Positions 1 through 64,000 are shown, numbered from the stretch's first letter. The stretch: 64,000 bases of DNA from Trypanosoma brucei (GCA_000002445.1 CH464491.1:4160001-4224000), one strand, 5' to 3'. Numbers and translations: made by a program. Notes: generated by a model not told the origin, from the sequence alone.

Positions 1-1084
1 TGCTTCATTTTCCTTTTTTTTTCTACCATTTGTGTTGTCGCAAAGACAGTTGAACACAATGAACGACGACAACATGAACAACAATAAAAAAAAAGTGCAG
101 ACGAGTGGGCGCAGAGCCGCAGCACTCTTGCAAAAGAGTCAATAAACTCACAATGAAGGTTGGTGAGAAATAAGAGGTGTTAAGAAAAGCGTAAACTTCA
201 CACTTTTAATCTTCCAACTCTTTTTTCTTCCCTCCAGTGAGCAAAGACACATATAAATACATATATATAAATACATATAAATATATATTCCCAGCCACTG
301 TTAAGAACAAACAATTAAGAAAGCGCTTACCGAAACGGAAACAAACAAACAAAAAAGCAAAGCAGAAAAGAACAGAACAAAAAAAAACAAAAACAAACAT
401 CATTATTATTTCTAACATTAGTTTTGGGTACGGTGCGTAATGAAATACGCACCACATACACACGCACATACAAAAATATGTATATAAATGTATATAAATA
501 TGTGACCTAATACAACATTTATTATGAGAAAGTGCATGCATTCACCAACTCAAGCATTCCTTACAGTACGTCCCTCTTGCGTGGGCATAAATAAAACAAC
601 AACATAAGTGAAAAAAACGTGAAACAAAAAAAATGTTCAGGAACAACAAAAGAAAAAAAAGAATCAGAAACCCATGGAGAGGAGCGGAGGAGGAAGAGGA
701 AAGAAAGCTATTCGACTAATATGTAAGCGGCACATACTTCGACGCATATTTACATACACACAAGAACTCATATAAATATATTTGCACGAGTTCGCCAATC
801 TCTATAACAGCAAAAGAAAAAAAACGAAAACCGGTAAGGGAATAGTAAGAATATAACCGCGTGATTCTTATTTTTCCCCTGCCTCAGCTACACACACGCG
901 CACACATACACACACACATACATATACATACATACACGGCAAGAATTACTATGAATGCATCATGCAACTGTTTGTGGAGCGGAGTGAAGCGAAGAGAGGG
1001 GGGGAAAAAAACAAAACAAGAAAACTGACAACAACACGTGGTGGCGATGGAAAAGCAGAATAGAAAAGTGCGCACTCGAAAAAA

Positions 1085-1131
1085 AATAATAATAATAACA
1101 ACAACAACAATAATAATAATAATAATAATAA
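1085..1131. repeat. (ATA)n/(ACA)n trinucleotide repeat
   Basis: ataataataacaacaacaacaataataataataataataata. Flanked by other low-complexity A/T/C tracts across 230-1140. Confidence 0.9.
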
Positions 1132-1299
1132 AACGAATAAAAAACGGAAACTACAGCGTCGAACAAAAACAACAACGGCGGAGCAACGGGAAGGATGTAA
1201 TCATTCTCAGGGGTCAACTCACAAAGCAGTTTCGAAAGATACGGGTAGGAAAAATTTTTTTAAAAGGAGAATGTGAAAGAAAAAGAAGAAGAAGCATAA

Positions 1300-3240
1300 G
1301 TGCCGTTGAAGGTTGGTACACAAGGAAACCCATGTCACTTATGGCGTCGTAACTGTTTGCGCACTCAGCACTGAGTTTCCGGCGCCCTCACACGAACAAC
1401 TTCCACCTTGTTGGCGATAAGCGCCAAAATGTTTTCCGACACGACGGAGACTGTACCGAAGACGAGACCCACGACGCCAGCACATAAAAGAAAGTAGGTT
1501 CCAAAAAAGTGGAAGTTGCCCACATTCCGTCGAGTCCATTTGCCAGAATACATGTAGAATAGCGATGGGAATATGAAACTGAGGAACCCGCCACAAATAG
1601 CACCCACAATACCAAACACAGTGTTAATGTTAGGAATGAAGAGGCCAGCCAGCAACACAACGAGGGAAAGGGGAATCACGAAGGAAAAGTGCTTCCAATA
1701 AGGCAGCGTCTCTAATTCCCAGCCCAGAACATGATATATTGTGTTCCGCAACGCCATTGTTTGAAGGGCGTAAGCAACACAAAGTTTGACCACCATGCCA
1801 ATGAAACCTATCATCATCATCACCTCCGTGATGGGATTGTACATGAGAAGAATTGAGTTGTCGATAGCACCACCAAACTCACCATACGCAAACAAAATAG
1901 TGAGTGCGTACAGAATACCGCAAAACGCCATGGATATGGCAGCGTACACTGTGAACCTGGCACAGCTGCGCTTCTTCATCTCCCAGTAAACTTCATAGCA
2001 ATTGATCTGGCAAACATATGCAAACATAAAAACACCAACGGACGCAATAGCAGAGTTTCCAGTGTTGAACAACTTCACGCCATCTTCTTCATCACTCGTT
2101 AACTTCGGGAGTCCGCTTTGAGCTCCATGAATCACAATTGCGAAGACGAAGTACAGGACAAAAATAATTGCGAAACCGGAAACATAGCGGAGCGAGTTAA
2201 CCCTCTTCGGTAAAACGAGTGGCAACATGAAAACCATCCATGTGAGTGCAGTCAGGAGACGAATCCCACCCGGAGTCCTCAGGAACTCGGGAGCACCGCA
2301 CGATTTCTCTATGATGGGATTCAACACATGGCCGACGCTAATCACATAGGAAACCGTCGCACCGAACGAGTTGATCCATCGAATAACAACAACAAAATAC
2401 TCAAACCTTCGCCCCATAACCCCTCTTGCGGTGTGCTCAAACGTGCGAAGACCGGTCTTCTCCATCACAAGTGACAGGATATGCAGGGAAAAAACACCCA
2501 ACCCACCAATAACCACCAAATACAACATTGCCATCACAAGCCCACTGCGGTTTGCCGCGGCAGGAAGTCCAAGGATACCGGCACCAATGCACACTGAACA
2601 AAGGTTAAAAACACTTGACACTAATCCACCATATGGAACAACAGTACCTGCAATATGCTTCATCTTTGCACTAAATGATTGCCACACGGATGGCGGTGCA
2701 TCGCCACGAGCGTCAACCCTCTTGTTCTTATCATCCGTGTGAATAGGTTCACTCGCATCAACTATTCCTGAAGGTTCCGCAGGAAAAGTCTGTTGGGTTA
2801 CGGGTGAAGTGGTGTTCTCGACATCAGTGGCACACTTGCCTTTGTCAGACATACCTTAATGTGCGCGATGGCAACGTCAATAAATGGGTAACTTATTGGA
2901 TATCGCCTGTCTTATACCAATCGTTGTACAACTCACGAAAGAAAGCACCCTTGTGTTATTATGTTACTCGCACTTCTCGTTTCGCTAGTAAGTTACTACC
3001 TTCAAGTAGATTATTAGCCTTTACTGTCGGTGTGCAGGAGTAAACAGAAGAAACAACAAAGTGAAGACAATGAAGGGAAATGATAGATCAGTACGTGCTC
3101 AAACATAGACGAGATAAGTCGGTATATTGAAGGGAGAAATAGGAAAGATAATGAAACAAGATACCTACACTTTACGTAATAGAGACATATTTGGAAAAGG
3201 GTATTTTGCTTCCCACAGTTGATAGAAAAAATATATATAT
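1300..3240. repeat. Tandem duplication unit 1 (AAT gene plus conserved 5' and 3' flanks)
   Basis: 1308-1364 aligns to 3899-3954. 2853-3240 aligns almost base-for-base to 5440-5825, which explains the duplicated spurious +strand ORFs 2804..3043 and 5391..5630. Period about 2590 bp. Confidence 0.9.
1365..2852 (-). CDS. Amino acid transporter, AAT/Aa_trans family, 10-11 TM (tandem copy A)
   Basis: 495-aa ORF. Polytopic membrane protein with a hydrophilic N-terminus (MSDKGKCATDVENTT...). Near-identical paralogue 2.6 kb upstream. Architecture typical of trypanosomatid AAT genes. Confidence 0.85.
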   Translation of the reverse strand: MSDKGKCATDVENTTSPVTQQTFPAEPSGIVDASEPIHTDDKNKRVDARGDAPPSVWQSFSAKMKHIAGTVVPYGGLVSSVFNLCSVCIGAGILGLPAAANRSGLVMAMLYLVVIGGLGVFSLHILSLVMEKTGLRTFEHTARGVMGRRFEYFVVVIRWINSFGATVSYVISVGHVLNPIIEKSCGAPEFLRTPGGIRLLTALTWMVFMLPLVLPKRVNSLRYVSGFAIIFVLYFVFAIVIHGAQSGLPKLTSDEEDGVKLFNTGNSAIASVGVFMFAYVCQINCYEVYWEMKKRSCARFTVYAAISMAFCGILYALTILFAYGEFGGAIDNSILLMYNPITEVMMMIGFIGMVVKLCVAYALQTMALRNTIYHVLGWELETLPYWKHFSFVIPLSLVVLLAGLFIPNINTVFGIVGAICGGFLSFIFPSLFYMYSGKWTRRNVGNFHFFGTYFLLCAGVVGLVFGTVSVVSENILALIANKVEVVRVRAPETQC

Positions 3241-3889
3241 TTAAAAAAATCTACCAGAAACACAAACATTGTCACTAACCGCAGTGCGAAGAGCACACAA
3301 ACTATTTGTCAAGGGTTGAATGCGCACAACAAAAACAAAAAAGGGGTTGCACGCATAGAACGTCGAAAAGAAAAATAAAATAAAAGACAAATATTCACTT
3401 TTTAAAAACGCGGAGCGCAGGCTCCTTTTTACCGGTGAAACAAAAATATCTGAATTTTGCTGTGCATCAATCCATTCAAACGTGTGGTATTGCGCCATCG
3501 GTAAAAAAAAAAAATACAAACGAAACCGGACCGATTGGTAAAGCATGGTCAAGAGGGGGCATCGTGGTGGCAACTTGCATCAATAGTACAAAATAAAAAT
3601 AAAAATAATTTGACGTTTTCGTTTTGGCTCCACTAACCTATTGGAAACGAAACACAAATACAAAGAACCTTAAAATTCAATACACTGGTAGCAGTAGGTG
3701 TAACAAGGCCAGTGGTTACGTTTTTTTCTTTCTTTTGCATATATGTATAACTTTTCGTTTGGTTGTATTAGATAATATAAAATATTTAATAAGAAAGGAA
3801 GGTTAAGGTACCTTACGGCTGCGTAATTCACTTTACGGAGTTAACACGTCTTGTTTAAGGTTAAACAGGGAAGAGAAAAGAAATTTTAC

Positions 3890-5825
3890 CCAACGTCAAA
3901 GGTTGGTACACATAGAAATCGACGCCATAAGTGACGTCGCGACTGTTTGAGCACTCAGCAGACAGGCGGGGGCTTAATAACAGCAGCGCCACCACCACCG
4001 TGAATGAACGACATGATGGTGTTTGTTACAACAGTGACTGTGCCGAACACGAGACCCACTACACCAAGAATGAACAGTGCGTAGGTTCCAAAAAAGTGGA
4101 AGTTGCCCACATTCCGTCGAGTCCATTTGCCAGAATACATGTAGAATAGCGATGGGAATATAGCGCTCAGGAACCCGCCACAAATAGCACCCACAATACC
4201 AAACACAGTGTTAATGTTAGGAATGAAGAGGCCAGCCAGCAACACGGTGAGGGAAAGGGGAATCACGAAGGAAAAGTGCTTCCAATAAGGCAGCGTCTCT
4301 AATTCCCAGCCCAGAACATGATATATTGAATTGCGAATCGCCATTGTTTGAAGGGCGTAACTAATACATATCTTAACGACCACACCTATAGAGCCTATCA
4401 GCATCATGACCTCCGTGATGGGATTGTACATGAGAAGAATTGAGTTGGTCACAGTGCCGCCAAACTCACCATAGCCGAAAAAGGCAACAAAGCCGTAAAA
4501 AGTGCCGCAAAAAGCCATGGATATGGCAGCGTACAATGTGAACCTGGCACAGCTGCGCTTCTTCATCTCCCAGTAAACTTCATAAATATTGATCTGGCAA
4601 ACATATGCAAACATAAATACACCAACGGACGCAATAGCAGAGTTCCCACTGTTGAACAACTTCACGCCATCTTCTTCATCACTCGTTAACTTCGGGAGTC
4701 CGCTTTGAGCTCCATGAATCACAATTGTAAGTGCAAAATACAGGACAAAAATAATTGCGAAACCGGAAACATAGCGGAGCGAGTTAACCCTCTTCGGTAA
4801 AATGAGTGGTAACATGAAAACCATCCATGTGAGTGCAGTCAGGAGACGAATCCCACCCGGAGTCCTCAGGAACTCGGGAGCACCGCATGAGTTCTCTATG
4901 ATGGGTCTTAAAACATGACCGATAGTAATAATATAGGAGGTACTTGTACCGAACGAGTTCAGCAAACGAATTGCAATGACGAAGTATACAAATCGTCCAC
5001 CCATAACCCCTCTTGCGGTGTGCTCAAACGTGCGAAGACCGGTCTTCTCCATCACAAGTGACAGGATATGCAGGGAAAAAACTGTCATTAATGCCATGAT
5101 GATCAAATACAACATTGCCATCACAAGCCCACTGCGGTTTGCCGCGGCAGGAAGTCCAAGAAAACCGGCACCAATGCACACTGAACAAAGATTAAAAACA
5201 CTTGACGCTAATCCACCATATGGAACAACAGTACCTGCAATGTGCTTCATCTTTGCACTAAATGATTGCCACACGGATGGCGGTGCATCGCCACGAGCGT
5301 CAACCCTCTTGTTCTTATCATCCGCATAAACAGGTTCACTGACTTTGCTTACTCCTGAAGGTTCCGCAGGAAAAGTCTGTTGGGTTACGGGTGAAGTGGT
5401 GTTCTCGACATCAGTGGCACACTTGCCTTTGTCAGACATACCTTAATGTGCGCGATGGCAACGTCAATAAATGGGTAACTTATTGGATATCGCCTGTCTT
5501 ATACCAATCGTTGTACAACTCACGAAAGAAAGCACCCTTGTGTTATTATGTTACTCGCACTTCTCGTTTCGCTAGTAAGTTACTACCTTCAAGTAGATTA
5601 TTAGCCTTTACTGTCGGTGTGCAGGAGTAAACGGAAGAAACAACAAAGTGAAGACAATGAAGGGAAATGATAGATCAGTACGTGCTCAAACATAGACGAG
5701 ATAAGTCGGTATATTGAAGGGAGAAATAGGAAAGATAATGAAACAAGATACCTACACTTTACGTAATAGAGACATATTTGGAAAAGGGTATTTTGCTTCC
5801 CACAGTTGATAGAAAAAATATATAT
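3890..5825. repeat. Tandem duplication unit 2 (AAT gene plus flanks)
   Basis: Same alignment as unit 1. A unique spacer at 3241-3889 separates the two units. Confidence 0.9.
3955..5439 (-). CDS. Amino acid transporter, AAT/Aa_trans family (tandem copy B)
   Basis: 494-aa ORF. N-terminal 29 aa identical to copy A, with blocks of perfect identity interspersed with diverged blocks. 5' flank (5440-5825) about 99% identical to 2853-3240. Confidence 0.85.
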   Translation of the reverse strand: MSDKGKCATDVENTTSPVTQQTFPAEPSGVSKVSEPVYADDKNKRVDARGDAPPSVWQSFSAKMKHIAGTVVPYGGLASSVFNLCSVCIGAGFLGLPAAANRSGLVMAMLYLIIMALMTVFSLHILSLVMEKTGLRTFEHTARGVMGGRFVYFVIAIRLLNSFGTSTSYIITIGHVLRPIIENSCGAPEFLRTPGGIRLLTALTWMVFMLPLILPKRVNSLRYVSGFAIIFVLYFALTIVIHGAQSGLPKLTSDEEDGVKLFNSGNSAIASVGVFMFAYVCQINIYEVYWEMKKRSCARFTLYAAISMAFCGTFYGFVAFFGYGEFGGTVTNSILLMYNPITEVMMLIGSIGVVVKICISYALQTMAIRNSIYHVLGWELETLPYWKHFSFVIPLSLTVLLAGLFIPNINTVFGIVGAICGGFLSAIFPSLFYMYSGKWTRRNVGNFHFFGTYALFILGVVGLVFGTVTVVTNTIMSFIHGGGGAAVIKPPPVC

Positions 5826-7155
5826 GCGTTGTAAGAACGATATCAATGATCAGAAACTTTGTAAATTTATAACGAAAATCCTATTTTCCCGAAGAAAAAA
5901 GAATTCCCCCCTTTTTACTATGGAGCGCCCTTCTTTCACAGACGGACTTACCACCTCCATGGAGCACAAGCTGGGCTTATGGCTGAAGGACCAGGCGGGT
6001 GAGCAGACAAACAAACTCCGCGGTTGAAGGGTACGACGGACCCATCACTGAAGTCAAACACGCACCGTAGTGGAAAATAAAATAACGACGCCTTTGTTGT
6101 ACTCACTCCACCGTTTTGCTGTTGAGGGTTTCGAATGTATTGGAAACCTCCATTGGTATGGGTAAAGTTAACCAACACGCCAGAGGGCTGTGCATTCATG
6201 CATCCGCCGAAGCATTAAATCACGTCTTCCTTGCAGTCCCACCCAAACAATACTGGTGGTTCTTTTTTCCCCCGAATGCTTCAACTTGGGAAACGGTGCG
6301 ACTACGACCCGGGTAGTTGATTAAAAGCATTTCTTCCTTACCATCTTTCCTGGCGCTGAAAGGGACGGTGATGGGCTTTTAACATGGCCACTCATGCCAA
6401 ACCACACGCTGCCTTTGCTATCCCACCTTCTATCACGCACTTCATCAACGTTACGGGTAGCTAATATGTGAAATGTGAAGAAGGAGATCAGCAGCGGTCC
6501 TTTAAAAAAACGGGTAAAACACAGTCACAGCATAAGATGAAAATAATAATATCAATAACAATGATAATAACAATGGCGCTGACCTTCACAGAGGATGCCA
6601 ATACGCATAGCAGCCGTGTGCAAGCAAGGGTGGAAAGGGAATGGAAGGGAAAAAAAACCGTACAAAAAGGTTTCAGAAGGCAAAGGAGTCGAGCGGCGAA
6701 CGGTTGCGTTAACAACGTGCAGCGGGCGCCGATGCACAAATGTGGATTGGGAAGTCAAACAGAAAAAAACACAAAAACGCTTCCGTCGCGGTGACGTTCG
6801 AACACTGCTGTCTGCTCCTCCCTTCCACATATTTGTAGCATTCTTTCGGATTGCTCCTCTTGCATATTCTTCGTCGTGCACAGCTTTTCTTAACAATTTA
6901 GCCTCCACACATAGTAGTGCACAGCGGTGTTTCCCTCAATACTAATAACAGATGTTGCAACGAGAGTTTTAAGAAAAACAAGGCGCCACAACAGACAGGG
7001 AACAGTGCAAGAATACCTTATCATATCTTGCCGCATGAACACTCAAACACTTATGTCGACAAGCAACTGAAGGTTGAGGGTGATACCCCAAGTTGATTGT
7101 GCCTCTCCGGTAACCACAAAGCTAACCTACACAAATATCTGCCATTTATCAACCA

Positions 7156-10100
7156 TCACACAAGATTCATGAGCGGCAGGGCAAATGTCGCCCTTGTGGG
7201 AGGTGGGAGGTGACGAGTACCTCCCCTCAGCATGTAGTACTGAATTCTTTTTTCTACAGCCACATGCATTCCGGTGAGATTCACCGCAAAGGCAGCAACC
7301 AGGTCATCCAGCATGCTATACGTGTCGTGAAGCAGCCGAAGTATCGGCTGAACCTCAAGGACACGTAGACCTTTGTATATAGTAGCCGCGATTTGTGGGT
7401 ATAAGCTCAGCAGCATGGGTCGTACATGCTGGGCGTAATGTGGAATAGCATAGGGCTGCACACCACCGCGGTCGCCACAGAGTACGCGGTGCTCACGCTC
7501 GAGGCGCTGCAGGCACTGAAGTGCCAACTCAGCATACCGTTGGTGATAAGGCTCACGAGATTTAAATGTCTCCAACTCCTCCGTGTAGGGTAACATAGAT
7601 GCATCAAGCAGGGATGAATCGCTGTGTCCACTTGATCCAACAAAGTTTTCCAGTGAGGCGTCTCGCGTACCACTCCCCGAATGAGACAGTCCCGCTGCGT
7701 CCACAGTTTGACCCACAGCATCTGCGGGCGCTAGCTGCTCAGAAGATAAAACATGCTGTTGCCTCTGCTGATTGTATATATCAAGCATACGGGCGAGTCC
7801 AGGTGAAGAAAACTCCATTTCAGCCTGTCGGGGTGTCCGTTGGAACCTATCCAGCTCCCACTTACTTCTAGCCACACGCGTGTACATCTCACACATAACA
7901 TCCTCGGGAAACGGTACTGCGACACATTCGTTGCCATTCCTAACAAAATCCTTCATCGTCATCCGGGAAGATCTCACGTTCGCATTGTGAAGGCTTGTAT
8001 GAAGAAACAGAAGCACTCCAGCCATAGCGTTAGCATCATCAGGCGAAATACTGCGGGGGTTTTGTGCCGCGTATACTTCACCAAAGCGCTGTTGGATTAC
8101 TACCCACACTTGCGCCTCGAAAGTGGGACGATCCCAAGACATAAACTCGCACGTAGTGTCCCTCAGCGCAATGTCGATAGGCACATTTCTATATGAAAAA
8201 TGTTGCAAGTATTCCCTTAGAATGCGGTCGCAGTCCTTGTCCTTTAGCACGCGCTCGAATATTCCACATAAAGCTCCCCGCTCAACACCCTCGTACGTTT
8301 TGAGAAACAGTGCAAAGGCACTCCAGCCTTCTTCACCCTCTGCCGGAATATAATCTCGCTCCTTCAAGAAGCTCATCGCCTGCCGCCACTGACCCTTGTT
8401 GATTAGGCCTACAGCTAGCTGTGCTGTGCGCTTGCTATGCAGCAGGTAATGTATGTGCTTCCAGTGGTAACCAACACTCCAGCGTCTTTCAACTCCCTGC
8501 TGTTCGAAGAGGGATTCATCAGTCACTATGGGGGAAACGGGCATATTGTTGCCTGTCACCCTTTCCGAGACCCGATGTCCATCCTTCACGTCCCTCTCCG
8601 AGTAGTTGCGGTACACATCATACCAACGGTTATCTGATACCGTGTCACCGGGAAGCCTGGAAAGCACCTGTCCCACAACCTCACGTGTTTGCTGGTGGGA
8701 ATAGTCATCAGGATCTTCCGCGATCCAGCGCTGCAACGAGTGAACTAAATTGTGTATGGCACTCGCACAACCACTGCGCAGGAGTTGTTGTTGGTCGTCA
8801 GAAAGCCAGTCCGGTTCAATAAGATGCGTGAAGGTCATCTCGGCCACGAAATTTACCATGAGCTCCAGCATCCCACCGTACTTACCACCGGCGTCAAATG
8901 TTGGATTACAGTCATAGTTGATGAAAAGCGAAACACACAGATGAGGAACACTGAGAAGCTCCCGCACCATGTCCACAACTGCGTGTTTTTGAGAAAAACT
9001 TGAGTAACGCGACAAAGCTAACGGAAACAGCATTACAGCAAGAACTGTGTGCAGCTCTCGAGCAAGGTGATAATGACATTTTTGGAGTAGCAATGAGATT
9101 ATACGCACCGCAGAGGCGAAGAAAGAAGCTGGGGCCACTGCGGTCAGATTCCGTGCAAGACACCTTGTAAGGTCGTACTTTGTTGCCGTAATCACTAGAG
9201 ACAACCATGTCGCGCAGTGGTGCTCTGCACAACAGTTTGCCATTGGGAGAGCCTGAAATACCGCCTCAAGCATATCAAGTGCAAGCTGCCGCGCTCGTGC
9301 TTCGGGACCTCCCTCACCAGTTGAACCTGATCCGCTTACTGTGCGAGCCCCAAGACTACAGGTATGCTTTATCAGTAACAGTAAATCCTTCATTGCGTCA
9401 GGGAACCGGCCCATTTTCATAGAAGATAAGGCGCTTCCAATTATCTGCCCATTCAAAGTGCTTCGAAAGTAGTCAAAGGAGGAAAACGTGGTCTCAGCGA
9501 ATAACTCACACTCTGAATTATGGCTCAGTGACTGCGCTGCCCTTTCGTCCCCTGTCGTTTCACCCAATGAAGCTTCGACAAAGGGATCCGTGTTGTTCTC
9601 CACACTGATGGGGAGGTGCTTCGAATCGGGCTCCACATCATGAACGTAGTCGTCCAACGGCGTTAGAGACGTAAAGGTGCATGAACGAGAATCTGTAGGT
9701 GCAGATTCCAGGAAAGTTCGAGTCACGCGAAGAACACATAACGGTAGCAGGTCGCGGCTAATCCCCCGAGCCCCTTCACTCGCGCCCAACAGGGCGACGC
9801 GACAACACGTTTGGATGCACCGGGTAACACACTTACCGGTGAACGAAGGGAAACTGTCATCACTCACGAGATCATGCAAAATCTCTACGCTGGTCAGCTG
9901 TAATCCCGCGTCTGTGATGCGTGCAAGCACATCCCCCAACGCCTCGAACATCGCGGCCCCGCACGAAAGTACGCTGCTGCTACCATTGGCCCGATATAGC
10001 ACGATGGATGTCGTATACTGAATGCAATTATTGTGGATCATCCGTTGTAATAGTGGGAGTGCAGCCTCCGTTACGCGCGTCTTCTTGATATAGAGGGCAC

Positions 10101-10296
10101 CCAAAACGGAAGACATAACCGAATCGGTCACAAATCGTATTCGCTCGCTTTTCCAAGCACCACCGCGCCACCTGCCGACAGATGACTGGGCTTGCTTAAG
10201 CGCCTGCTTAAACTCAGGATCAATAACAAAACTCCCACCATCACCACGGGAAACCAGTGCCAACAGCGAATCAAGTGACCGCAGGAGAGCCTCCAT
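7156..10296 (-). CDS. Large conserved hypothetical protein, alpha-helical. Possible DCB/HUS-type (MON2/BIG-like) scaffold.
   Basis: 1046-aa uninterrupted ORF. Contains LFINYDCNPTF, which resembles the HUS-box N-Y-D-C-D/N of Sec7-GEF/MON2 N-terminal regions. No clean Sec7 FRLPGE motif (only RLPGD). Confidence 0.7.
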   Translation of the reverse strand: MEALLRSLDSLLALVSRGDGGSFVIDPEFKQALKQAQSSVGRWRGGAWKSERIRFVTDSVMSSVLGALYIKKTRVTEAALPLLQRMIHNNCIQYTTSIVLYRANGSSSVLSCGAAMFEALGDVLARITDAGLQLTSVEILHDLVSDDSFPSFTGKCVTRCIQTCCRVALLGASEGARGISRDLLPLCVLRVTRTFLESAPTDSRSCTFTSLTPLDDYVHDVEPDSKHLPISVENNTDPFVEASLGETTGDERAAQSLSHNSECELFAETTFSSFDYFRSTLNGQIIGSALSSMKMGRFPDAMKDLLLLIKHTCSLGARTVSGSGSTGEGGPEARARQLALDMLEAVFQALPMANCCAEHHCATWLSLVITATKYDLTRCLARNLTAVAPASFFASAVRIISLLLQKCHYHLARELHTVLAVMLFPLALSRYSSFSQKHAVVDMVRELLSVPHLCVSLFINYDCNPTFDAGGKYGGMLELMVNFVAEMTFTHLIEPDWLSDDQQQLLRSGCASAIHNLVHSLQRWIAEDPDDYSHQQTREVVGQVLSRLPGDTVSDNRWYDVYRNYSERDVKDGHRVSERVTGNNMPVSPIVTDESLFEQQGVERRWSVGYHWKHIHYLLHSKRTAQLAVGLINKGQWRQAMSFLKERDYIPAEGEEGWSAFALFLKTYEGVERGALCGIFERVLKDKDCDRILREYLQHFSYRNVPIDIALRDTTCEFMSWDRPTFEAQVWVVIQQRFGEVYAAQNPRSISPDDANAMAGVLLFLHTSLHNANVRSSRMTMKDFVRNGNECVAVPFPEDVMCEMYTRVARSKWELDRFQRTPRQAEMEFSSPGLARMLDIYNQQRQQHVLSSEQLAPADAVGQTVDAAGLSHSGSGTRDASLENFVGSSGHSDSSLLDASMLPYTEELETFKSREPYHQRYAELALQCLQRLEREHRVLCGDRGGVQPYAIPHYAQHVRPMLLSLYPQIAATIYKGLRVLEVQPILRLLHDTYSMLDDLVAAFAVNLTGMHVAVEKRIQYYMLRGGTRHLPPPTRATFALPLMNLV

Positions 10297-48195: not shown

Positions 48196-48359
48196 ACCTC
48201 CGATACGTATCTCGCCACATCGCCAGCGGAAAGTATCATGGTGCCTTAGCGATACCACCGCTGTACTGATGCTGCTTGGGTCACCAAAAATCTCACACCA
48301 CACTTTGGCCACCATTGTGGAAACTACCGCACAGAAAGGGGCTGGTTGGTGGGTGTTGA
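48196..48359. repeat. 164-bp intergenic direct repeat, copy 1
   Basis: About 98% identical (3 mismatches) to 48590-48753. Generates the shared spurious ORF N-terminus MVAKVWCEIFGDPSS... Confidence 0.9.
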
Positions 48360-48589
48360 GCCAAATGAAAATGTCAGGAAACCGATAGAGCATTTCTCAT
48401 TCATGCACACAATGAGACACAAATTAAACAAATCTTGGTCAGCTTTTGAACCACATTGCACTTACAATGGTACAAGTACTGGGCCTTCGAACTGACCTTA
48501 AGGAACCATCAGGGTCACCGCCGGGAACTTTGTAGGCGAAAGGAACACGAAATAGAGGGGAAAAAACGCAAGGAAGACGAAAACAGCAA

Positions 48590-48753
48590 CCTCCGATACG
48601 TATCTCGCCACATCGCCAGCGGAAAGTATCATGGTGCCTTAGCGATACCACCGCTGTACTGATGCTGCTTGGGTCGCCAAAAATCTCACACCACACTTTG
48701 GCCACCATTGTGCAAGCTACCGCACAGAAAGGGGCTGGTTGGTGGGTGTTGAG
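48590..48753. repeat. 164-bp intergenic direct repeat, copy 2
   Basis: See copy 1. Start-to-start spacing 394 bp. Confidence 0.9.
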
Positions 48754-61148: not shown

Positions 61149-62890
61149 TCCAATCAAATGAAAAAGGAAGTAGTGCATACACAAAGTGATGAATCGTAGA
61201 TACAAAGGAAAAAAAAAGCAAACAAATCACTGTGGACAGATGTATTTGTAAGGCCAGAAACATCCTCCAGTGCAAATATTGTTTCCTTCGGTACGCTGAG
61301 TAAAAGAGTAGATGGGTAGCGAAATGCCAGAAGATTATCATACAACTATTGTTCAGGGAGGGTGTGTCACTGTAGATGGTACCGTGAAAGTTACCGGAAA
61401 GAAATAAAGGACGGATCCGTGTGTAAGACAAAAGTAGCCATATTTTACAAACTACATGTCATTCTTTGTAGCCCTTTAAAACAAGCTCCACTCGAATTCA
61501 AGGTGGGAACCGCCTGCCACACATGGAAGTTGACTGACTATGAAACTAGTCAGCAGAGGCATACGCATTCGTATTAATTCATTCCGCTTTTCCCCACTGC
61601 GCGGCGGACCGGAATGAAAACGAGGGCGGCATCATTGCTGCTGGAGAGTGGGAAAAGACTGCCCCATAATATTCCCGGCTCGAATCGTGAACATTACTAT
61701 GAAGGTTACCGTGAGGCAAAATCGCAGCACCCCGAGAAGGTACAACTCACCACGGTGGTGGAGGGAATCGTCCCTGTGCGGTTTTTATGCAATCATTTCC
61801 AGTAACTTTAGCCGCTTTCACGGAGAAGCACACCGGAGGGTGGAGCCGAGAATGTGGATGATACAGCCGTTAGAATCAACAGCGGAAGTCGGTAAAGGGT
61901 GGACCAAACCTAGTAACACCTCCTGAAGGATTCACGACACTTCCACCTCACTAATCAAAGGAAGAGAGGACTCGTGATCCAGCGGTACGTTGCGAGTGCA
62001 ATTTGCTTCACTCTCGATTCGACTCGAAAGTAAAGCATACGGCGGGGAAAACATTGGCAGGCTGAAAAGAAACGGGTAGGTGGGAAATAAAATATGGCTC
62101 CGAAGCCACTTGTGCACACAGACGCCCTTATTGCCACGGCGCCCTCATGATCATTCTTACACATTTGTATAGTTTTGAGGGAGTCCGTAAACACAGAAAA
62201 GGGAACGATGATTCCGGACGGCACGGATAGCAGGAAGTAAAAGGGAAAGAAGCAATGGGGCCACATCAGCAAATACGTGCTAAGGCACTCATAGCGACCG
62301 AAACCAAACCGGTTACAAACTTGCTTTAGGTGCCAAGTTGTATCCAAGCGTGTTGATAATTGAAAGGGATTTGCGCAGCAAAATGGAATAGGAAAAGGGA
62401 CTCTCACTGAGCAAACAATGATGCCAATAGTAAGAGCATGAGCGCAAATAAGTAACGGATTCGGAGAGTCGTGCAATACATGGCAACGCTGGCTCGTGTA
62501 ACGCCTCTCATTTCTTCTTCAACAGGGAGTGAGCAGAGATGGAATGAATCCAAGGAGGGGGAGCGCCATCATGAAAGTGCGTTACTGAAAGTTGTTCACG
62601 AGAGCTTTGCTAAATTTAACCAACCGGCTGGCCGATAGAGAGGGCGTCACTTCCCACAACATCGCTTGTGTGGGTTGCGTACGGCACCTGAAGATGGAGA
62701 GATACGGGATACTTCTTCCGATATAACTGAAACATCATGTGATTGCCGCATGCCATTTACTCCGGAGCAGAAGGTAAAGGGATGTGGGGTGGCACCATGG
62801 CCCAAGGTAGTGTTGGCCGAAAGCGTCTTAAGTGTAGCCAAGTATTTCTGAGGCAGGTGGGCCCCACCTGGCGTATTTGCAAACAGGGGA

Positions 62891-62892
<2 letters not shown>

Positions 62893-62924
<32 letters not shown>
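62893..62924. repeat. (AT)16 microsatellite
   Basis: Perfect dinucleotide run, followed by C10 and (CAAA)n at 62937-62975. Confidence 0.95.
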
Positions 62925-62927
<3 letters not shown>

Positions 62928-63339
62928 GGAGTGACGCCCCCCCCCCAAAAAAAAAAACAAACAAACAAACAAACATATAGAAGAGAGAGCCTTTGGAAGA
63001 AGGGAAAAAATTGCCGAGCATATCAGCAGTCAACCCCTAAAAACAAATTGGAAGCGCCATCACATCAATAGTGTAGTGGGGAGTTGAAAACAACAATCGA
63101 ATGCAATTGGGCAAGTGACAACTACGAACAAAAACTGCAAGTGGAAGACGGCTGCACTGCCCTAGACAACACTTATCAGGAAGCGCCCAACCATGTATGC
63201 GACATATGCGAATTTTGGGCATCATGTAGGGAATGTGACAAAAAGACCAATTTCTCCCGCACTTAACACACCTTTGGCCCCCACAAGTACTCCGCAATGG
63301 CTGAGGTTATCTCTACTGCGGAAATACAGGGACGTCGGG

Positions 63340-63700
63340 CCATGGGTGCAACAGATGCTTAAGGTAGGGTAAGTGGTGATGGGGGAGCGTTTGATTTTAT
63401 TTATTTTTAATAATTCGATACGTTCGTGCATATAGGGATTAAGAGGTGGAAGGAAAAGTGTGTGTGTGCGATTTTTTTTTTTTTGAGATGACGGAGCAAA
63501 AAATGTTTGTCCGTACATGTGTGCTAAGCAATATAAAAGGGTGGGGGTTAATATCAAGTGGCAGTGACAGTTGTTATCGACGTTTGATCAGCAGGAGGGT
63601 TCTTCCAGATTTTCCTACATTGTTGGAGGCAATATATTTTTTTGTGTTTTTGTGGTGGTTTATAGCAGATATGTGCTGTTATGCTTAGAGGAGAATATCG
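63340..63700 (+). promoter_or_regulatory. GT-rich tract on plus strand. Candidate divergent Pol II start region for a plus-strand unit beyond the window.
   Basis: Plus-strand G+T-rich (ggtagggtaagtggtgatggggg..., gtgtgtgtgtgcgattttttttttt..., ttgtgtttttgtggtggttt). Mirror image of the minus-strand GT tract at 60.3-61.1 kb. Confidence 0.4.
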
Positions 63701-64000
63701 TGATCCAGGCCAGTACTGACGGAGAAAAAAAGCTCCATGATTTTTTCCTATCCGGTGGGCAGTGGCCTTCTGTCAGTCACTGCTGGCCGTTGTCATCTGC
63801 GGCAATTTGGCGTTTACCCTTTGCGGTTATTTTGTCAAAAAAAAATCAATTGAACTGAAACAGGCACCGCATAATCTTTAAAAAAACGTGTTCCTTGTGT
63901 GCTGCTTGCCTGCTATTCACGATGTAAGGAAACATAACGATACAGCTGAATATACTTAAATTTTCTATAAAACATACAAGTGCCCCCCCCTGACGAGATG

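What the first reader, a model, noticed from the sequence alone, without database searches (positions are those of the whole stretch)
1300..5825. Tandem AAT transporter paralogues with mosaic (block-wise) divergence and near-identical 5' flanks
The two 494/495-aa transporters share perfectly identical stretches (N-terminal 29 aa, several internal blocks, 388 bp of 5' flank with 1 visible mismatch). They differ in discrete blocks: a loop after the N-terminus, TM regions (e.g. LVVIGGLGV vs LIIMALMTV) and the entire C-terminal 40 aa (...ENILALIANKVEVVRVRAPETQC vs ...NTIMSFIHGGGGAAVIKPPPVC). This patchwork suggests recurrent gene conversion plus diversifying selection on substrate-facing segments, as seen in trypanosome AAT arrays that influence drug and amino-acid uptake. 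Further array members may lie upstream of position 1.
Basis: seen in the sequence. Interest (0 to 1): 0.5.

Follow-up and report, generated by a model that had tools for sequence, protein, structure and literature searches.

The report
Gene-converted tandem amino-acid transporter pair
These are the two known, annotated AAT17 amino-acid transporter genes of Trypanosoma brucei chromosome 11: an old tandem duplicate whose front parts are still being copied onto each other by gene conversion, a process already described for this gene family, so the finding is real but mostly ordinary.

Summary
Two minus-strand ORFs (1365-2852, 495 aa; 3955-5439, 494 aa) are XP_829652 and XP_829653 of T. brucei TREU927, locus AAT17 (Tb927.11.15950 and Tb927.11.15960).

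A 1790-nt repeat (1449-3238 vs 4036-5825) is 91.8% identical, and the differences are strongly clustered. The 386-nt 5' flank has one mismatch. About 160 codons lie in divergent "islands", and the 3' flanks are unalignable.

Gene conversion is supported:
- Synonymous and non-synonymous differences co-cluster (islands pS 0.60; the rest 0.034).
- Eight TREU927-versus-gambiense SNPs are changed identically in both copies (0.07 expected).
- Small patches switch type between strains.

Diversifying selection is not shown. dN/dS is 0.16-0.34 in the large transmembrane islands. The 494-aa copy does evolve about 3.5 times faster, and it carries unique residues at otherwise invariant sites.

No further array member exists: in gambiense and equiperdum the next gene is a 960-aa non-transporter.

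The locus, its copy number and a rate asymmetry were published in 2007, along with gene conversion in sister AAT arrays. The 494-aa copy is the published starvation-induced "AAT17.2". Its unrelated 3' UTR is a plausible basis for that regulation, but this is inferred.

Interest is low to moderate.

The parts
1365..2852 (-). Copy A. CDS of the 495-aa amino-acid transporter (XP_829652/EAN80540; by order and length Tb927.11.15950, 'AAT17.1' in current usage). This is the conservative copy, close to T. congolense and the outgroups.
3955..5439 (-). Copy B. CDS of the 494-aa transporter (XP_829653/EAN80541 = Tb927.11.15960, 'AAT17.2'). This is the fast-evolving copy, induced by starvation in procyclic forms according to the literature.
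2853..3238 (-). 5' flank of copy A, 386 nt, homogenised with 5440-5825 (one mismatch at 3046). It contains a pyrimidine-rich tract (about 3163-3034) and the first downstream AG at 3025-3024, which is a candidate trans-splice acceptor giving a 5' UTR of about 171 nt (inferred).
5440..5825 (-). 5' flank of copy B, the partner of 2853-3238. The homology stops abruptly at 5825.
1449..3238 (-). Repeat unit, copy A, as delimited by blastn (91.8% identical to 4036-5825).
4036..5825 (-). Repeat unit, copy B.
2301..2412 (-). Island of old divergence, codons 147-184 (predicted TM3). B coordinates 4888-4999. 69% nt identity, pS 0.63, dN/dS 0.18. It includes W159L and A165T and keeps Tyr169.
1861..1949 (-). 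Island, codons 302-331 (predicted TM7). B coordinates 4448-4536. 71% identity, dN/dS 0.34.
1742..1821 (-). Island, codons 344-371 (predicted TM8). B coordinates 4329-4408. 74% identity, dN/dS 0.16.
2496..2516 (-). Small island, codons 113-119 (predicted TM2; VVIGGLG vs IIMALMT). B coordinates 5083-5103. 14 of 21 nt differ.
2738..2765 (-). Small island, codons 30-39 (N-terminal cytosolic loop). B coordinates 5325-5352. dN/dS about 0.8. Its copy type differs in the T. b. equiperdum assembly.
1304..1493 (-). 3' end of the CDS (codons 454 to stop; TM11 plus C-tail) and the first ~60 nt of the 3' UTR. It is homologous to 3894-4080 at only about 56-65% identity. This is the least converted part and gives the baseline age of the duplication.
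3239..3954 (-). 3' flank and UTR of copy B, which is also the spacer between the copies. It has no detectable similarity to the 3' flank of copy A beyond the first ~60 nt.
1..1364 (-). 3' flank and UTR of copy A. It is T-rich on the coding strand, unique, and holds no transporter ORF.

Best explanation
The two genes are an old tandem duplicate of one AAAP-family (Aa_trans, LeuT-fold) amino-acid transporter. They form locus AAT17 of T. brucei chromosome 11.

The duplicated unit ran from 386 nt upstream of the ATG to somewhere in the 3' flank. Since then, short-tract non-reciprocal recombination (gene conversion) between the neighbouring copies has repeatedly overwritten the 5' flank and most of the first ~450 codons. 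It has acted in both directions and continued into the period when T. brucei lineages diverged. Those parts are therefore nearly identical.

Some segments have escaped conversion and keep the original, nearly saturated divergence (dS about 1.2). These are the islands in predicted TM2, TM3, TM5, TM7 and TM8, a few single codons, the TM11/C-tail region, and the whole 3' UTR.

The 3' part is now too different to pair, so it lies permanently outside the conversion domain.

The result is two mRNAs with the same splice-acceptor region, 5' UTR and N-terminal phosphorylated tail. They differ in core helices, C-tails and 3' UTRs.

Shown here: the mosaic, the heterogeneity in age, the concerted SNPs, and the faster evolution of copy B.

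Inferred:
- The unrelated 3' UTRs are what let copy B (AAT17.2) alone be strongly induced on amino-acid, proline or glucose starvation.
- The large islands persist because selection keeps B-specific residues.
For: Identity:
- Exact matches to XP_829652 and XP_829653.
- The 494-aa copy is Tb927.11.15960.
- Phosphosites T14/T15/S16 and S59 listed for AAT17 fit the shared N-terminus.

Mosaic.

Age heterogeneity:
- Islands have pS 0.60 and pN 0.28. The rest has pS 0.034 and pN 0.010.
- dN/dS is about 0.3 in both partitions.
- Synonymous and non-synonymous counts per window correlate (Spearman rho 0.89).

Non-coding evidence:
- The 5' flank shows 0-1 differences in 386 nt between paralogues within a genome, against 2-3 between strains.
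- The 3' flanks are unalignable.

Ongoing conversion:
- Eight sites differ between TREU927 and DAL972 in the same way in both copies, against 0.07 expected (P 2e-14).
- At the protein level, C7S and R45G occur in both copies of DAL972.
- DAL972 copy A carries the B residue at 426. DAL972 copy B carries the A residue at 113.

Asymmetry:
- With T. cruzi as outgroup there are 25 B-unique against 7 A-unique replacements (P 0.0015).
- The T. congolense fragment matches A at 38 sites and B at 2.
- By my count from the table, B alone differs at 12 sites that are identical in all available outgroup sequences and, where it is available, in T. congolense.

Regulation: AAT17.2 mRNA rises from about 40 to 190-450 TPM on starvation. 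3' UTR control is the established mode of regulation in trypanosomes.
Against: - No direct evidence links the 3' UTR difference to the differential expression. No expression data for copy A under starvation were found.
- Selection maintaining the islands is not demonstrated. dN/dS is below 1, island edges are not preferentially non-synonymous, and small islands flip between strains.
- Timing relative to the T. brucei / T. congolense split is unresolved. Three sites favour an (A, T. congolense) grouping, one or two do not, and no T. congolense DNA or second copy was available.
- The equiperdum assembly has 1-nt deletions at three variable sites in copy B, so its patch switches may be consensus artefacts.
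- Islands were defined from the differences themselves, which inflates their pS somewhat.
Confidence: 0.85

Rival explanations
1. The duplication is recent and the divergent blocks are where positive (diversifying) selection drove rapid amino-acid replacement. The identical parts then simply reflect the young age of the duplication.
For: The divergent blocks hold most amino-acid differences. Copy B carries unique residues at otherwise invariant positions. Isolated whole-codon replacements (C285I, V398T) are flanked by perfect identity.
Against: - Synonymous divergence in the blocks is near saturation (pS 0.60, dS about 1.2) against 0.034 elsewhere.
- dN/dS is 0.16-0.34 in the large TM islands.
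- The 3' UTRs are unalignable while the non-coding 5' flank is 99.7% identical.
- Strain-specific SNPs occur in both copies.
Confidence: 0.04
2. The mosaic is neutral. The islands are only the segments that conversion has not yet reached, and copy B evolves under relaxed constraint, so the paralogues are functionally redundant or B is decaying.
For: - dN/dS is the same (about 0.3) inside and outside the islands.
- Island edges are not enriched for non-synonymous codons.
- Small islands change type between strains.
- AAT17.2 supported growth on no substrate tested in yeast.
Against: - The large islands are fixed in all three genomes while the flanking sequence is being converted.
- The B ORF is intact in TREU927, DAL972 and Lister 427.
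- dN/dS of about 0.2 in TM3, TM7 and TM8 indicates purifying selection on B-specific sequence.
- B is specifically regulated.
Confidence: 0.25
3. The divergent blocks of copy B were imported by ectopic gene conversion from another AAT locus elsewhere in the genome.
For: T. brucei has many AAT loci, and very dense micro-blocks occur (14 of 21 nt differ at codons 113-119).
Against: - At about 61 A/B-different sites, five other T. brucei s.l. AAT paralogue clusters match B no more often than A (7-16 against 14-20), and mostly match neither.
- All those paralogues are only 39-44% identical overall.
- Jackson 2007 found no ectopic conversion between AAT loci.
Confidence: 0.03
4. One copy is a chimeric or collapsed assembly artefact.
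For: Tandem arrays are prone to collapse. The T. b. equiperdum long-read assembly shows 1-nt deletions at variable sites in copy B.
Against: The same two copies, spacing and fixed differences occur in three independent assemblies. A 494-aa orthologue is annotated in Lister 427. Each copy has its own unique flanks.
Confidence: 0.02

Closest known systems
Tandem AAT arrays of T. brucei analysed by Jackson 2007 (BMC Evol Biol 7:26, PMC1810246): concerted evolution in AAT2, AAT5 and AAT7, and partial gene conversion in AAT4, AAT7 and AAT9
   Same: Same gene family and same genome. These are tandem duplicates with distinct sequence types that persist despite gene conversion. The AAT17 locus itself is catalogued there (Tb11.01.7590, two copies, one T. 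cruzi homoeologue, none in L. major), and a rate asymmetry between its two copies is reported.
   Different: [quoted passage not shown] The strain-shared SNPs, the island map and the 5'-flank / 3'-flank contrast shown here are additions. Jackson calls the faster copy AAT17.1, whereas the faster copy here is Tb927.11.15960, now called AAT17.2. This numbering discrepancy is unresolved.
Leishmania AAP3 arginine transporter tandem pair (PMC3218042, PMC7554669)
   Same: Two tandem AAAP transporter genes with similar ORFs but distinct UTRs. According to my recollection of these papers (abstracts only were displayed here), essentially one of them responds to substrate starvation.
   Different: There the ORFs are almost identical, the 5' UTRs also differ, and the substrate is known. 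Here the 5' UTR is shared, the proteins differ in about 75 residues, and the substrate of the induced copy is unknown.
Differentiated terminal copies in trypanosomatid tandem arrays, such as the Leishmania beta-tubulin array with a divergent 3' UTR (PMC1533823; review PMC4413820)
   Same: Coding regions are homogenised by gene conversion, while a copy with a divergent 3' UTR acquires its own expression pattern. Paralogues with unrelated 3' UTRs show the largest expression differences.
   Different: The family is different, and in those arrays the proteins are essentially invariant.
Human PAT1/SLC36A1 (PDB 9v3t; PMC13473456), the nearest solved structure
   Same: LeuT-fold, 11-TM AAAP relative (hmmsearch E 7e-8). 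In the HMM alignment, the TM1 G-x-G segment, the TM3 carboxylate-binding Tyr (PAT1 Y158 = Tyr169 here), the TM6 Phe (F267 = Phe277) and the TM7 Tyr (Y303 = Tyr315) are conserved in both copies.
   Different: Only distant sequence similarity. Copy B differs from A at the equivalents of PAT1 L65 (I93F) and F154 (A165T), and next to the equivalent of M274 (C285I). The substrates of AAT17 are unknown.

Membership tests
AAAP / Pfam Aa_trans (PF01490) amino-acid transporters | Match to the family HMM above the curated gathering score over nearly the full model. | tested here: met
   157.8 and 165.7 bits against a cut-off of 25.6, covering model positions 5-408 of 410.
AAAP / Pfam Aa_trans (PF01490) amino-acid transporters | LeuT-type fold with 11 TM helices and conserved pocket residues in TM1, TM3 and TM6. 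| tested here: inconclusive
   The AF2 model has 11 long helices but only pLDDT 53, so no fold search was run. The profile hit to human PAT1 has E 7e-8, and the G-x-G segment, Tyr169 and Phe277 align to PAT1 G62/G64, Y158 and F267.
Locus AAT17 of T. brucei (Jackson 2007; Tb927.11.15950/15960) | Sequence identity with the annotated proteins, position on chromosome 11, and two tandem copies. | tested here: met
   Exact-sequence look-up gives XP_829652 and XP_829653 on a 5.26-Mb record. The 494-aa copy is Tb927.11.15960. The published phosphosites fit. There are two copies in DAL972 and equiperdum, flanked by a Sec7-domain gene and a 960-aa gene.
Concerted evolution by gene conversion between tandem duplicates | Lineage-specific substitutions are present in both paralogues of the same genome. 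| tested here: met
   Eight sites for TREU927 against DAL972 (0.07 expected, P 2e-14) and six for TREU927 against equiperdum. C7S and R45G occur in both DAL972 proteins.
Concerted evolution by gene conversion between tandem duplicates | Strong heterogeneity of synonymous or non-coding divergence along the repeat, showing segments of very different age. | tested here: met
   pS is 0.60 in the islands against 0.034 elsewhere. The dispersion test gives P < 2e-4. The 5' flank has 1 difference in 386 nt, while the 3' flank is unalignable.
Concerted evolution by gene conversion between tandem duplicates | Short tracts switch paralogue type between strains while both flanks are unchanged. | tested here: met
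   Window 1578-1575 (codons 424-426) is B-type in DAL972 copy A. Codon 113 is A-type in DAL972 copy B. The equiperdum switches at 2765-2738 are discounted.
Concerted evolution by gene conversion between tandem duplicates | Cladistic criterion: paralogues cluster by species rather than with their orthologues in a sister species. | not testable with these tools
   Only one partial T. congolense protein (358 aa) and no T. congolense DNA could be retrieved.
Positive (diversifying) selection between paralogues | dN/dS above 1 in the divergent segments. | tested here: not met
   One search gives dN/dS of 0.18 (TM3), 0.34 (TM7), 0.16 (TM8), 0.29 for all islands, 0.79 for the N-terminal loop and 0.60 for the C-terminal part.
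Positive (diversifying) selection between paralogues | A lineage-specific excess of replacements by a branch-site or McDonald-Kreitman test. | not tested
   This needs orthologue DNA and population samples. Only a relative-rate asymmetry was shown (25 against 7, P 0.0015).
Differentially regulated tandem transporter pairs (Leishmania AAP3 type) | Unrelated 3' UTRs, with only one copy responding to nutrient starvation. | tested here: inconclusive
   The 3' flanks are unrelated beyond ~60 nt. Induction of Tb927.11.15960 is published. No data for copy A under starvation and no UTR-swap experiment were found.

The most novel reading that the evidence does not exclude
Copy B (AAT17.2) is a neofunctionalised paralogue, either a transporter with a new substrate range or a non-transporting nutrient sensor. 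In this reading, the residues that define its new function survive as selection-protected islands in a gene that is otherwise continually overwritten by its neighbour. The island map (TM3, TM7, TM8, I93F, A165T, C285I, V398T, F426A) would then be a natural read-out of the specificity-determining positions of a trypanosome AAAP transporter. The private 3' UTR would be the element that senses proline or energy starvation.
Probability: 0.3. Interest if true: 0.4.

Novelty: new member of a known kind. Interest (0 to 1): 0.22.

Why it matters
The genes, their tandem arrangement and a rate asymmetry are published. Gene conversion in sister AAT arrays of the same genome is also published. The finding therefore adds one more documented case rather than a new principle.

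Its practical value is for people working on trypanosome nutrient uptake:
- It explains why peptides and primers cannot distinguish the two AAT17 genes over most of their length.
- It shows that the starvation-induced, still orphan AAT17.2 is the derived copy, and which residues distinguish it from its conservative neighbour.
- It points to the 3' UTR (window 3239-3954) as the place to look for the proline/energy-starvation response element.

Tried and rejected
- **Island edges and selection.** I tested whether island edges are preferentially non-synonymous. They are not (15 N against 10 s, permutation P 0.76).
- **Ectopic donor for the B islands.** Other T. brucei AAT paralogues gave no B-like match.
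- **B-type orthologue outside T. brucei.** A search with the C-terminal 200 aa of B returned nothing at all, not even B itself, which looks like a tool quirk. The full-length search found none.
- **T. congolense DNA.** None could be retrieved. The TCIL3000_11_15860 protein is not on record with a contig, and an exact look-up of the TREU927 protein also failed. The species-level concerted-evolution test and the dating of the duplication could therefore not be done.
- **Polarising with the T. congolense protein.** The result is inconclusive. By my own reading of the table, B retains the ancestral state at 3 of the 12 sites where A and T. congolense share a derived state.
- **Structure prediction.** The AF2 model from an 11-sequence alignment is of low confidence (pLDDT 53). 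I used it only for helix boundaries and ran no fold search.
- **T. b. equiperdum copy B as a pseudogene.** The copy looked frameshifted. However, three of its four 1-nt deletions (two of the three inside the CDS) lie exactly at sites that vary between copies or strains. I treat them, and the equiperdum-specific patch swaps, as probable consensus artefacts.
- **Third transporter in the window.** None was found among ORFs of 250 aa or more.

Full report
**What is there.** Window 1300-5825 holds two minus-strand ORFs: 1365-2852 (495 aa, "copy A") and 3955-5439 (494 aa, "copy B").
- Both match Pfam Aa_trans far above threshold.
- An exact-sequence look-up identifies them as XP_829652/EAN80540 and XP_829653/EAN80541 of Trypanosoma brucei brucei TREU927, on a 5.26-Mb record (chromosome 11). 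The next gene, 7156-10296, is the Sec7-domain protein EAN80542.
- A supplementary table of Haindrich et al. 2021 lists the Lister 427 orthologue of Tb927.11.15960 as 1485 nt / 494 aa. Copy B is therefore Tb927.11.15960 ("AAT17.2"), and copy A is Tb927.11.15950 by order.
- The phosphosites published for AAT17 (T14/T15/S16, S59) fit the shared N-terminus.
- This is locus AAT17 of Jackson 2007: two copies in T. brucei, one in T. cruzi, none in L. major.

**Checking the observation.** blastn of 1-8000 against itself gives one repeat, 1449-3238 vs 4036-5825, at 91.8% identity.
- A global alignment with 50-nt windows shows an abrupt start of homology at 3238/5825. Identity is essentially 100% through the 386-nt 5' flank and the first 29 codons. 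Blocks of 96-100% and 66-86% then alternate.
- Over the 386-nt flank plus 492 codons there are 189 differences.
- They fall into clusters at codons 30-39, 113-119, 147-184, 234-238, 302-331, 344-371, 424-426 and 454 to the end. There are also isolated codons in which all three bases differ (C285I, V398T).
- The longest identical run is 280 nt. The permutation mean was 54 and the maximum 140 in 20,000 trials.
- Past codon 454 identity falls to about 56-65%. It remains detectable until about 60 nt after the stop codons (1304/3894), and beyond that the 3' flanks share nothing.
The flank is 386 nt rather than 388, and the C-terminal 40 aa retain a 10-aa identical run.

**Not an artefact, and no further copies.**
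- The loci of T. b. gambiense DAL972 (L001) and T. b. equiperdum (L002) are collinear with the window at 97.9% identity. They have the same two copies and spacing.
- Most A/B differences are fixed in all three genomes.
- In both other genomes the gene downstream of copy A is a 960-aa protein with no Aa_trans hit.
- The window contains no other transporter ORF.
- The array is therefore two genes. The separate AAT16 lysine-transporter pair (Tb927.11.15840/15860) lies further along the chromosome.

**Why the mosaic exists.** Nei-Gojobori counts show that synonymous and non-synonymous differences rise and fall together (Spearman 0.89 in 15-codon windows).
- The islands have pS 0.60 (dS about 1.2) and pN 0.28. 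The remaining 332 codons have pS 0.034 and pN 0.010.
- Synonymous differences alone are over-dispersed (index 2.9; none of 5000 simulations reached it).
- The non-coding 5' flank is the most similar part, while the non-coding 3' flank is unrecognisable.
- The blocks therefore differ in age, not in the rate of protein change. That is the signature of gene conversion acting on an old duplicate.

**Direct evidence that conversion is ongoing.**
- Between TREU927 and DAL972, eight sites (A coordinates 3182, 3033, 2838, 2833, 2720, 2478, 2241, 1722) carry the same change in both copies, against 0.07 expected by coincidence (P 2e-14).
- In the 5' flank, the paralogues within a genome differ at 0-1 sites, whereas orthologues between strains differ at 2-3.
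- At the protein level, C7S and R45G occur in both DAL972 copies.
- DAL972 copy A has the B residue at 426, and DAL972 copy B has the A residue at 113. Conversion therefore goes in both directions and in short tracts.
- The equiperdum assembly shows further switches. Its copy B has four 1-nt deletions, three of them exactly at sites that vary between copies or strains. I treat that evidence as unreliable.

**Selection.**
- dN/dS is 0.18, 0.34 and 0.16 in the three large islands and 0.29 over all islands. It is 0.79 in the N-terminal loop and 0.60 in the C-terminal part.
- Island edges are not enriched for non-synonymous codons.
- Diversifying selection in the dN/dS sense is therefore not shown.
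- There is, however, a clear asymmetry. At sites where A and B differ, T. cruzi agrees with A 25 times and with B 7 times (P 0.0015). T. grayi gives 26 against 6. The partial T. congolense protein gives 38 against 2.
- By my count from the table, B alone is changed at 12 positions that are identical in all available outgroup sequences and, where available, in T. congolense (for example I93F, W159L, C285I, V398T, F426A).
- No other T. brucei AAT paralogue resembles B in the islands, so an ectopic donor is unlikely.
- Whether the duplication predates the split from T. congolense could not be settled. No T. congolense DNA was available, and no B-type protein occurs outside T. brucei in the database.

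**Where the differences lie in the protein.**
- A low-confidence AF2 model (pLDDT 53) predicts 11 long helices. The islands coincide with predicted TM2, TM3, TM5, TM7, TM8 and TM11 plus the C-tail. TM1, TM4, TM6, TM9 and TM10 are almost identical.
- The nearest solved structure is human PAT1/SLC36A1 (E 7e-8).
- I mapped the published pocket residues through that alignment. The head-group-recognising residues are conserved in both copies (G90/G92, Tyr169 = Y158, Phe277 = F267, Tyr315 = Y303).
- B differs at the equivalents of L65 (I93F) and F154 (A165T), and beside the equivalent of M274 (C285I).
- This is compatible with an altered pocket. It rests on a weak alignment and on three residues out of about 75.

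**How it most likely works.** The shared 386-nt flank contains a pyrimidine-rich tract followed by the first AG at 3025-3024 / 5612-5611. This is a plausible trans-splicing signal giving a 5' UTR of about 171 nt (inferred).
- Both mRNAs would thus share processing signals, the 5' UTR and the phosphorylated N-terminal tail, but have unrelated 3' UTRs.
- Trypanosome gene expression is controlled mainly through 3' UTRs, and paralogues with unrelated 3' UTRs show the largest expression differences.
- AAT17.2 is one of the transcripts most strongly induced by amino-acid, proline or glucose starvation in procyclic forms. It complemented no yeast amino-acid transport mutant tested.
- Copy A has been seen in bloodstream-form proteomes.
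- I infer that the private 3' UTR of copy B (3239-3954) carries the starvation response. I also infer that the 3' region, once too diverged to pair, permanently escaped homogenisation.

**Comparison with what is known.**
- Jackson 2007 described concerted evolution and partial gene conversion in T. brucei AAT arrays. He catalogued AAT17 and noted a rate asymmetry between its copies. He reported no conversion event there and did not test two-copy loci for concerted evolution.
- His faster copy is called AAT17.1, whereas the faster copy here is the gene now called AAT17.2. I could not resolve this numbering mismatch.
- Functionally the closest analogue is the Leishmania AAP3 tandem pair (similar ORFs, distinct UTRs; that essentially one copy responds to starvation is my recollection of these papers, of which only the abstracts were displayed).
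- Another analogue is the Leishmania beta-tubulin array with a differentiated terminal 3' UTR.

**Verdict.** This is a further, well-documented instance of a known process at a known locus. It offers some useful leads for the orphan, starvation-induced AAT17.2.

Noticed in passing
window 48210-48751 (-): A tandemly repeated snoRNA cluster, TB11Cs5. An H2-H1 pair lies at 48210-48358 and again at 48603-48751 (period about 393 nt), and H3 occurs once at 48433-48498. All are well above the Rfam gathering scores. This is a known family.
   Followed up: no
L002 (T. b. equiperdum) 3400-4902: Copy B is split into separate reading frames by 1-nt deletions. Three of the four deletions in the repeat sit exactly at positions that vary between copies or strains, while copy A has none. 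This looks like a consensus or polishing artefact at ambiguous sites rather than a pseudogene. Real decay in a parasite without an insect stage is not excluded.
   Followed up: partly
window 1365-5439 versus the literature: There is a nomenclature mismatch. Jackson 2007 says AAT17.1 evolves faster than AAT17.2. Here the faster, derived copy is the 494-aa Tb927.11.15960, which Haindrich 2021 calls AAT17.2. The copies may have been numbered in transcription order in 2007.
   Followed up: partly
window 1-56000: All large ORFs are on the minus strand, forming one polycistronic unit. They include Sec7/GBF1-like, RNase_T exonuclease, RRM, RPN7, prefoldin-like, TPR/CS and FYVE proteins. GC skew changes sign only in the last 2 kb (62001-64000), which could mark a strand-switch region.
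   Followed up: no
T. congolense protein P0015 (TCIL3000_11_15860): The only AAT17 homologue from T. congolense in the database is a 358-aa fragment that starts inside the gene. This is consistent with an assembly gap within a tandem repeat. Its C-terminal tail is extended, as in both T. brucei copies, and unlike T. cruzi, T. grayi or T. theileri.
   Followed up: partly
window 2371-2742 (+) and 4976-5329 (+): Antisense ORFs of 123 and 117 aa lie inside the two transporter genes. They are a by-product of the duplicated coding sequence, and there is no evidence that they are genes.
   Followed up: no
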